From Squalus acanthias (lineage: Eukaryota): a stretch of 64,000 bases of DNA. Shown here piece by piece: positions 45,811 through 46,394 of this stretch. The position numbers were made by a program, and so were the translations under genes. The notes under the pieces are model-generated. The model was not told the origin of the DNA. It saw only the letters and a list, made by a program, of their open reading frames with translations, and ran no database searches. The DNA lies in the NCBI GenBank assembly GCA_030390025.1, contig CM059432.1, positions 55,492,001 to 55,556,000 on the forward strand, written 5' to 3'. The stretch's first letter is position 1. The number at the start of each line of letters is the position of its first letter.

Positions 45811-46394
45811 ACAAATGTGAGAAGTCGCACAACACCAGGTTATAGTCCAACAGCTTTATTTGAAATCACAAGCTTTCGGAGCGCTGTTCCTTTGTCAGGT
45901 GAAGTGAAGAGATGCATATAGGCACAGCATATATAGTCAGAACACACTGCCAGATGATTACAGTTAATCTTTCTAACTGCCCTTTATCACACCTCGGCAG
46001 AGAGATAATCACGGCAATCAAAGCAAAAAAAAGTTTTTTGTTTTCCATACAGACCCCAGCATCTGCCACATTTGACCCCTTGTGACCCCACCTCATTGTC
46101 TTTGATGTAATGTTTTCCTGACTGACCTGTTTGGACACCATCCACACCTTTGATTGCCGTGATTATCTCTCTGCCGAGGTGTGATAAAGGGCAGTTAGAA
46201 AGATTAACTGTAATCATCTGGCAGTGTTCTCTGACTATATATGCTGTGCCTATATGCATCTCTTCACTTCACCTGACGAAGGAGCAGCGCTCCGAAAGCT
46301 TGTGATTTCAAATAAAGCTGTTGGACTATAACCTGGTGTTGTGCGACTTCTCACATTTGTTCACCCCAGTCCAACACCGGCATCTCCACATCAT
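45811..46394. mobile_element. Non-autonomous palindromic Penelope-like element (inverted pseudo-LTRs)
   Basis: 213-bp arms 45811-46023 and 46148-46360 with about 4 mismatches; extra tail 46361-46394; 12-bp TSD TCCTGGTAGACA. Confidence 0.88.
46269..46305 (+). ncRNA. Minimal hammerhead ribozyme motif of Penelope-like LTR
   Basis: UCAC-CUGACGA-A-GGAGC(AGC)GCUCC-GAA-AGCU-U-GUGA: stem I, core, stem II, palindromic stem III, NUH site. Confidence 0.75.

What the first reader, a model, noticed from the sequence alone, without database searches (positions are those of the whole stretch)
45811..46394. Penelope-derived 213-bp palindrome carrying a hammerhead ribozyme that is intact antisense and core-mutated in the GREB1L sense arm
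Seen: two 213-bp inverted arms around a 124-bp loop, with a 12-bp TSD and no ORF. The right arm (+) reads UCAC CUGACGA A GGAGC AGC GCUCC GAA AGCU U GUGA. The left arm, read on the minus strand that GREB1L transcribes, reads CUGACAA and GGAAC. Two of only about four arm mismatches therefore hit the ribozyme: core G8 and stem II. Known: Penelope-like pseudo-LTRs carry minimal hammerheads with a palindromic stem III that are thought to cleave as dimers. Inference: this is a young non-autonomous ribozyme-bearing retroelement, and the copy that could cut the host pre-mRNA has been disabled. The G8 change is also a CpG transition, so neutral decay is a real alternative.
Basis: partly seen in the sequence, partly recalled or inferred. 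Interest (0 to 1): 0.72.

Follow-up and report, generated by a model that had tools for sequence, protein, structure and literature searches.

The report
Ordinary fold-back Penelope insertion, decayed ribozyme
A truncated Penelope-like jumping gene landed in an intron as the mirror-image pair typical of its class, and the damaged hammerhead ribozyme motif in one arm most likely reflects ordinary mutation rather than protection of the host gene.

Summary
In detail: 213-bp arms 98.1% alike, a 12-bp TSD, an intact minimal hammerhead motif on + and a G8A/stem II-mutated copy on the strand of a GREB1-family gene. Contigs from two related organisms span the empty site with one 12-mer, so this is a real, lineage-specific 592-bp insertion. 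It is not a dedicated palindromic element: it is a 5'-truncated Penelope-like end plus an inverted copy and a 33-nt 'tail', a layout in print since at least 2013; opposite-strand hammerhead pairs were reported in 2014. The 'disabled to protect the host' reading is poorly supported. An older Penelope-like copy in the same gene has the same G8A at a CpG while lying antisense. Two of three events fall in the motif by chance 8-24% of the time. In the host transcript the antisense arm is made first and is predicted to trap the sense hammerhead in a 213-bp duplex (about 63-67 kcal/mol). Such motifs are reported to cleave weakly and not as monomers. Cleavage and a genome-wide orientation tally were not testable. 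This scan noted the same fold-back pattern on other DNA. Ordinary; interest 0.12.

The parts
45802..45813 (+). Left copy of the 12-bp target-site duplication; its last 3 nt also fit the inverted arm
   Evidence: empty site in X6 and X7
45811..46023 (-). Inverted, tail-less copy of the element's 3' end; sense to the host gene
45866..45902 (-). Minimal hammerhead motif with G8A (45893, CpG transition) and a stem II G-to-A (45887)
   Evidence: stem II hairpin -0.2 versus -5.8 kcal/mol
46024..46147 (+). Unduplicated 5' part of the direct copy (the 'loop'); 5' truncation point near 46022-46026
   Evidence: family-level depth across it, and loose ends before 46022-46034 in X1, X5, X7 that agree with each other
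46148..46360 (+). Direct copy of the pLTR end; antisense to the host gene
46269..46305 (+). Intact minimal type I hammerhead motif; predicted scissile bond 46301/46302; palindromic AGCU 46297-46300
   Evidence: 35 of 39 nt identical to motifs in L001 and L002
46361..46393 (+). 33-nt Penelope 'tail', present at this end only; 46361 T is private (family C in about 96-99% of depth)
   Evidence: table 3; loose ends behind 46394 in all four runs
46394..46405 (+). Right copy of the target-site duplication
45340..45456 (-). Nearest downstream host exon (GREB1 second domain); its acceptor lies about 345 nt from the insertion
   Evidence: Pfam PF20688; AG/GT borders read
37308..38375 (+). Control: older Penelope-like insertion in the same gene, 14-bp TSD, 60-bp inverted arm (92%), GIY-YIG-like remnant
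38258..38294 (+). Control: its hammerhead motif, antisense to the host gene, with the same CUGACAA core (G8A at CpG) and an unstable stem II

Best explanation
This is one dead-on-arrival insertion of an abundant Penelope-like retrotransposon family, likely laid down as two reverse-transcribed copies of the element's 3' end joined head to head, and the hammerhead damage in the host-sense arm most likely arose by neutral mutation. Shown: the empty site, the 12-bp TSD, the 5' truncation, the inverted copy, the 33-nt tail, the four arm differences. Inferred: a staggered 12-bp cut gave two 3' ends; one primed at the RNA's far end (370-nt copy with tail), the other at the inner start site 33 nt upstream (213-nt copy), helped by a match of 7 of 8 bases between target end and family sequence; the two were joined over a 2-nt overlap (AG, 46022-46023). 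Inferred: the arms then drifted (three events, or differences between two template RNAs). Predicted: in the host pre-mRNA the antisense arm is transcribed first and zips up the sense arm, so neither motif folds, intact or not.
For: Empty site in two related organisms, flanks 3.5% (24 of 680) and 3.1% (24 of 772) from the window, arms 1.9% apart. Family 3' end at 46394 in all four runs; family continues 5' of 46026; all 15 shown of 496 joints lead from the left arm to the right arm at other centres. Layout matches Craig 2021 (PMC8557442, passages), Arkhipova 2013 (PMC3846280, passages); two RT start sites bracket the tail and both target strands are cut and extended in Frangieh 2024 (PMC11167929, parts 1-2 of 4). 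Neutral decay: same G8A at CpG in the antisense control; 6 of the arm's 12 CpG bases lie in the motif; P(2 or more of 3 events in the motif) 0.08 unweighted, 0.14-0.24 at CpG weights 5-15; P(core hit) 0.14-0.28. Forcing the hammerhead fold costs 62.9 (minus) and 66.8 (plus) kcal/mol. A Schistosoma minimal hammerhead showed no monomer cleavage and low dimer cleavage (PMC4209133, parts 1-2 of 4).
Against: All three arm differences appear to sit on the sense arm and two hit the motif; the stem II change is not at a CpG. The local CpG yardstick is modest (79 of 211 CG dinucleotides changed to TG/CA versus 679 of 5054 other sites differing; about 1.4-fold per site, biased low), so the lower chance figures (about 0.08, about 0.02 if both must also be on the sense arm) may apply. 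The control is one older copy of another family, which has had more time to decay. That the left arm is the derived one at 45893 and 45887 is inferred (core conservation, L001/L002, 4- to 5-fold more family depth on the right motif), not read from a family tally. A 2026 preprint reports mild depletion of tandem retrozymes from Xenopus introns (10.64898/2026.07.22.740005, parts 1-2 of 5), without strand analysis in the parts read.
Confidence: 0.85

Rival explanations
1. One reading: selection fixed mutations that disable the hammerhead on the strand the host gene transcribes, because it would cut the pre-mRNA about 410 nt before a splice acceptor.
For: Both motif changes are on the sense arm; G8 is essential (G8C abolishes activity of a PLE hammerhead, PMC11167929; G8A as inactivating is recalled, one search found no paper); unweighted chance of two events in the motif and both on the sense arm is about 0.02.
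Against: Same G8A in an antisense copy in this gene; predicted 213-bp duplex forms before the motif can fold; no partner for a dimer on the same strand in the window; slow intronic hammerheads did not block splicing in the studies summarised in PMC2995048 (passages); a second hit adds little once G8 is lost; an AATAAA in the sense arm (45855-45860) is untouched; the insertion itself is present in both samples of organism A.
Confidence: 0.07
2. The inverted arm was made by fold-back of one cDNA onto itself (self-priming) and not by a second priming on RNA; the differences are then all polymerase errors or later mutations. The verdict on the ribozyme is unchanged.
For: Imperfect A/T hairpin at the 5' truncation point (46020-46044, sequence); Arkhipova 2013 reads junction palindromes as self-priming; both arms share the G allele at the polymorphic site 46317/45854.
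Against: The arm stops exactly one tail length (33 nt) short of the end; in the control element the 30 nt between TSD and arm (37322-37351) lie on the short inverted side, which could not be copied from a direct copy lacking them (inferred).
Confidence: 0.3
3. A dedicated non-autonomous palindromic retroelement (retrozyme- or MITE-like) that moves as a 592-bp unit.
For: No ORF, TSD around the whole unit, near-perfect arms.
Against: No second copy in the window; none of the 15 joints shown (of 496) has this centre, and the family extends 5' of it; not a tandem array with two same-strand motifs as animal retrozymes are.
Confidence: 0.04

Closest known systems
Complex insertions of EN+ Penelope-like elements: 5'-truncated copy plus adjacent inverted pLTR plus 30-40-bp tail (Arkhipova et al. 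2013, PMC3846280; Craig et al. 2021, PMC8557442; passages read)
   Same: Head-to-head inverted copy, tail at one end only (33 nt), TSD around the whole unit (12 bp here; 8-10 bp in the rotifer cases), 5' truncation.
   Different: Here truncation removed the whole ORF, so the unit is a 592-bp near-palindrome; the family's own ORF was not recovered.
Minimal hammerheads (min-HHR) of metazoan PLEs (Cervera and De la Pena 2014, PMC4209133; parts 1-2 of 4 read)
   Same: CUGANGA/GAAA core, extra base between 9 and 10.1, G10.1-C11.1, 4-bp helix I, palindromic 15-16 region; the paper also reports pairs 100-700 bp apart on opposite strands.
   Different: Helix II is 5 bp (7-8 bp in Schistosoma); U17; cleavage untested here.
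Poseidon PLE of Anolis carolinensis, PAc (Frangieh et al. 2024, PMC11167929; parts 1-2 of 4 read)
   Same: Tail bounded by two copy ends; hammerhead shortly upstream of the tail.
   Different: The closest relatives found here (L001, L002) carry a CxxC motif before the GIY-YIG-like end, which points to the Neptune side; clade not established.
Animal non-LTR retrozymes (Li et al. 2026 preprint, 10.64898/2026.07.22.740005; parts 1-2 of 5 read)
   Same: Non-coding, PLE-related, type I hammerhead.
   Different: Retrozymes are direct tandem arrays with same-strand motifs; this is a single inverted pair.

Membership tests
EN+ Penelope-like element insertion | Inverted 5'-truncated copy adjacent to the 5' end of the direct copy | tested here: met
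EN+ Penelope-like element insertion | 30-40-bp tail at one end | tested here: met
   33 nt, 46361-46393; family end at 46394
EN+ Penelope-like element insertion | Target-site duplication with an empty site | tested here: met
   12 bp; empty site in X6 and X7
EN+ Penelope-like element insertion | Hammerhead motif in the pLTR | tested here: met
   descriptor hit, 0 in 200 shuffles; no Rfam match
EN+ Penelope-like element insertion | Family encodes a PLE-type RT plus GIY-YIG endonuclease | tested here: inconclusive
   No ORF in this copy. Related motifs (35 of 39 nt) in L001 and L002 lie beside an RT fragment (RVT_1 E 1.5e-5, below cut-off) and a GIY-YIG-like ORF end (no Pfam hit; motif by eye; E 2e-6 to the window's control element). 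This family's own ORF was out of reach (no genome).
Minimal type I hammerhead (+ arm) | Intact core CUGANGA / GAAA / UH, helices I and II, palindromic helix III region | tested here: met
Minimal type I hammerhead (+ arm) | Self-cleavage (as a dimer) | not testable with these tools
   bench assay needed
Minimal type I hammerhead (minus arm) | C3-G8 pair and stable helix II | tested here: not met
   C3 with A8 (not the U3-A8 covariant of PMC4209133); helix II -0.2 kcal/mol
Non-LTR retrozyme | Direct tandem units, each with a same-strand hammerhead | tested here: not met
Dedicated non-autonomous palindromic element | Many copies sharing the same centre and ends | tested here: inconclusive
   none of 15 shown of 496 joints shares this centre; centres vary; full list not seen

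The most novel reading that the evidence does not exclude
This family's minimal hammerhead does cut in living cells, and host selection measurably removes or disables host-sense intronic copies genome-wide, this locus being one instance; the in vivo cut would leave a footprint as genomic copies that begin at the scissile bond (3 of the 15 joints shown, all in run X6, restart at 46300-46303).
Probability: 0.07. Interest if true: 0.6.

Novelty: new member of a known kind. Interest (0 to 1): 0.12.

Why it matters
As it stands it matters little: it is a clean, dated example (empty site, TSD, tail, junction microhomologies) of a described Penelope insertion pattern. The open question it touches is real: whether minimal PLE hammerheads cut RNA in vivo. 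A genome with this many young copies makes a sense-versus-antisense tally, and a tally of 5' ends at the scissile bond, easy to run; one locus cannot answer it. No paper on orientation-specific decay of such motifs came up (open-licence library only).

Tried and rejected
Rfam scans at E up to 10 over 45500-46700 and 46230-46340: no hammerhead model matched. No whole genome is held, so the genome-wide tally could not be made. Pattern scans: 0 hits in viral contigs, 0 in metagenome contigs with the pLTR pattern, 2 with the hammerhead pattern (L001, L002), 0 in prokaryote genomes. No RNA holder listed; no RNA run was laid. ESM Atlas gave only unrelated TPR-like look-alikes for a host exon and did not settle GREB1 versus GREB1L. 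One search had helix indices off by one; the fold penalties quoted are from the corrected, and its chance figures use a 38-nt instead of 37-nt motif. Dimer co-folding (-30.5 unconstrained, -20.7 for a forced strand-swapped hammerhead dimer of the + motif, -7.3 for the minus motif) shows only that pairing is possible and is not used as evidence of cleavage. Of 5 descriptor hits, two (47266 +, 33420 -) were dropped as chance-like (long loops, G-U-rich or mismatched helices). Luense et al. 2017 could not be read; it is known here only through a review passage (PMC6765202). An APOBEC/AID reading of the two C-to-T changes on the left arm's + strand was considered and dropped: two events are no signature. 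Supplements were not consulted; the retrozyme preprint's supplements are closed and might hold strand data.

Full report
What is there. The arms lie at 45811-46023 and 46148-46360, 213 nt, 98.1% complementary, 124 nt apart. The four mismatches are three events: G8 of the hammerhead core (46278 versus 45893), one stem II base (46284 versus 45887) and a doublet outside the motif (46228-9 versus 45942-3). A 12-mer is repeated at 45802-45813 and 46394-46405. No frame longer than 98 aa is open. The + motif at 46269-46305 has helix I (4 bp), the CUGACGA core, one extra base, helix II (5 bp), GAAA, a palindromic AGCU and U17. Rfam does not see it, but a strict descriptor finds it once in the window and never in 200 shuffles, and two metagenome contigs hold a motif identical at 35 of 39 bases next to Penelope-like protein fragments. 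GREB1-family exons lie on the minus strand on both sides; the nearest acceptor is at 45457, about 345 nt from the insertion. The name GREB1L rather than GREB1 fits my recollection of the protein but was not tested. That the host is a shark comes from earlier scan notes, not from a call of mine.

The insertion is real and recent. I laid 4 of the 21 listed runs. In X6 and X7 (organisms B, C) a single contig runs from the left flank to 45801 and goes on at 46394 with no letters between: the empty site, with one copy of the 12-mer. In X1 and X5 (two samples of organism A; one may be the window's own source) a contig runs from the flank into the element, 1 difference in about 485 bases. Flanks of B and C differ from the window at 24 of 680 and 24 of 772 bases; the arms differ at 4 of 213. 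So the insertion post-dates the split from B and C.

It is a truncated Penelope end, not a purpose-built palindrome. Summed depth over the element is four to five orders of magnitude above the flank in all four runs (not a copy number, but a very abundant family). Contigs end at 46394 with unlike sequence behind (75-284 contigs per run, agreement 0.34-0.39): the family's 3' end, 33 nt beyond the right arm. Contigs continue 5' of 46022-46034 with one shared sequence, so the 'loop' is the unduplicated 5' part of the direct copy. All 15 joints shown, of 496, lead from the left arm to the right arm at other places, as expected from other fold-back copies with other centres. Craig et al. 2021 describe exactly this: high 5' truncation, an inverted truncated copy at the 5' end, a 30-40-bp tail at either end (PMC8557442, passages); Arkhipova et al. 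2013 give cases with 8-10-bp TSDs and a 31-bp tail (PMC3846280, passages); Cervera and De la Pena 2014 report minimal hammerheads in PLE repeats and pairs 100-700 bp apart on opposite strands (PMC4209133, parts 1-2 of 4).

How it was likely made (inferred). Frangieh et al. 2024 show that a lizard PLE protein cuts and extends both target strands and starts reverse transcription at two sites that bracket the tail (PMC11167929, parts 1-2 of 4). Here a 12-bp staggered cut would give two primers. One copied 370 nt from the far end. The other copied 213 nt from the inner site; the target end matches the family sequence there at 7 of 8 bases once the private T at 46361 is set against the family's C. 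The two copies overlap by AG at 46022-46023. Self-priming of one cDNA is the rival; the control element below, with 30 extra bases on its short inverted side, fits two primings better.

Was the sense ribozyme disabled by selection? For: both motif changes are on the sense arm, G8 is essential, the stem II change is not at a CpG and drops that hairpin from -5.8 to -0.2 kcal/mol. With no CpG weighting the chance of two of three events in the motif is 0.08, about 0.02 if both must be on the sense arm, and my local CpG yardstick was modest (79 of 211 CG dinucleotides versus 679 of 5054 other sites, ten repeat pairs). Against: (1) half of the arm's CpG bases are in the motif; with weights of 5-15 the chance is 0.14-0.24, and of any core hit 0.20-0.28, in a family with a vast number of copies and a locus picked after the fact. 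(2) A second, older Penelope-like insertion in the same gene (37308-38375; 14-bp TSD; 60-bp inverted arm) has its motif antisense to the gene, and it shows the same CUGACAA core and a collapsed stem II. Of three credible motifs in the window, G8A is in 1 of 1 sense and 1 of 2 antisense. It is one copy and older, so it shows that the change happens without orientation, not its rate. (3) The host transcript runs from high to low coordinates, so the antisense arm exists before the sense motif emerges; the fold is a continuous duplex through the motif even when the RNA ends 10 nt past it, and forcing the hammerhead fold costs 62.9 kcal/mol (66.8 for the intact + strand). (4) A minimal hammerhead showed no monomer activity and low dimer activity; the lizard motif needed protein and no RNA ends were seen at its site; there is no same-strand partner in the window. 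(5) Slow intronic hammerheads were compatible with splicing in the work summarised by PMC2995048 (passages). (6) Once G8 is lost a second hit gains little. I put neutral decay, or differences present at birth, at about 0.85 and selection at about 0.07.

Limits. That the left arm carries the derived bases is inferred from core conservation, L001/L002 and 4- to 5-fold higher family depth on the right motif; the table of differences showed 40 rows and hid 153, and reads with the variant would be laid on the left arm. No genome was held, no RNA holder was listed, and no cleavage was measured. Searches for prior work on orientation-specific decay of such motifs returned nothing relevant (open-licence library).

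Verdict. Observation confirmed, interpretation partly supported. A new copy of a described kind; earlier scan notes record the same fold-back pattern in this and other genomes, which is not independent support. Interest 0.12; the in vivo cleavage and selection case stands at about 0.07 and would deserve about 0.6.

Noticed in passing
window 37308-38375: Second, older Penelope-like insertion of another family: 14-bp TSD, inverted 60-bp arm, 30 extra bases on the inverted side (probable tail), frameshifted RT-end and GIY-YIG-like remnant, hammerhead motif with G8A antisense to the host gene.
   Followed up: yes
table 5, positions 46300-46303 and 46264-46267: Of 15 joints shown (of 496), 3 restart at or within 2 nt of the predicted scissile bond (all run X6) and 7 at the 5' edge of the motif.
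   Followed up: no
window 46311-46316 and 45855-45860: AATAAA just 3' of the motif, intact in both arms, so a possible poly(A) signal lies in host-sense orientation within the intron.
   Followed up: no
window 46020-46052: Imperfect A/T hairpin at the 5' truncation point, followed by a pyrimidine tract ending in CAG (46050-46052) that resembles a splice acceptor; PLE repeats can hold introns.
   Followed up: no
window 16067-16256: Very decayed fold-back remnant related to the second Penelope-like family (79% over 67 nt; weak opposite arm near 16194-16256), no recognisable hammerhead.
   Followed up: partly
L001:102-449 and L002:48-578, 1333-1361: Two marine metagenome contigs share a long pLTR with a close hammerhead motif; L002 has a CxxC plus GIY-YIG-like ORF end before it, L001 an inverted RT fragment.
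   Followed up: partly
window 45811-46360, minus strand: The predicted 213-bp duplex in the host pre-mRNA, about 350 nt before an acceptor, is a likely A-to-I editing substrate and is a more plausible host effect than cleavage.
   Followed up: no
window 46422 onward (about 46472-46850): Another multi-copy repeat begins just right of the insertion (depth in the thousands in all four runs).
   Followed up: no
window 53502-53723 (-) and 32335-32679 (-): DDE_Tnp_4 (Harbinger-type) fragment by Pfam at 53502-53723; a similar-looking fragment at 32335-32679 had no Pfam hit.
   Followed up: no
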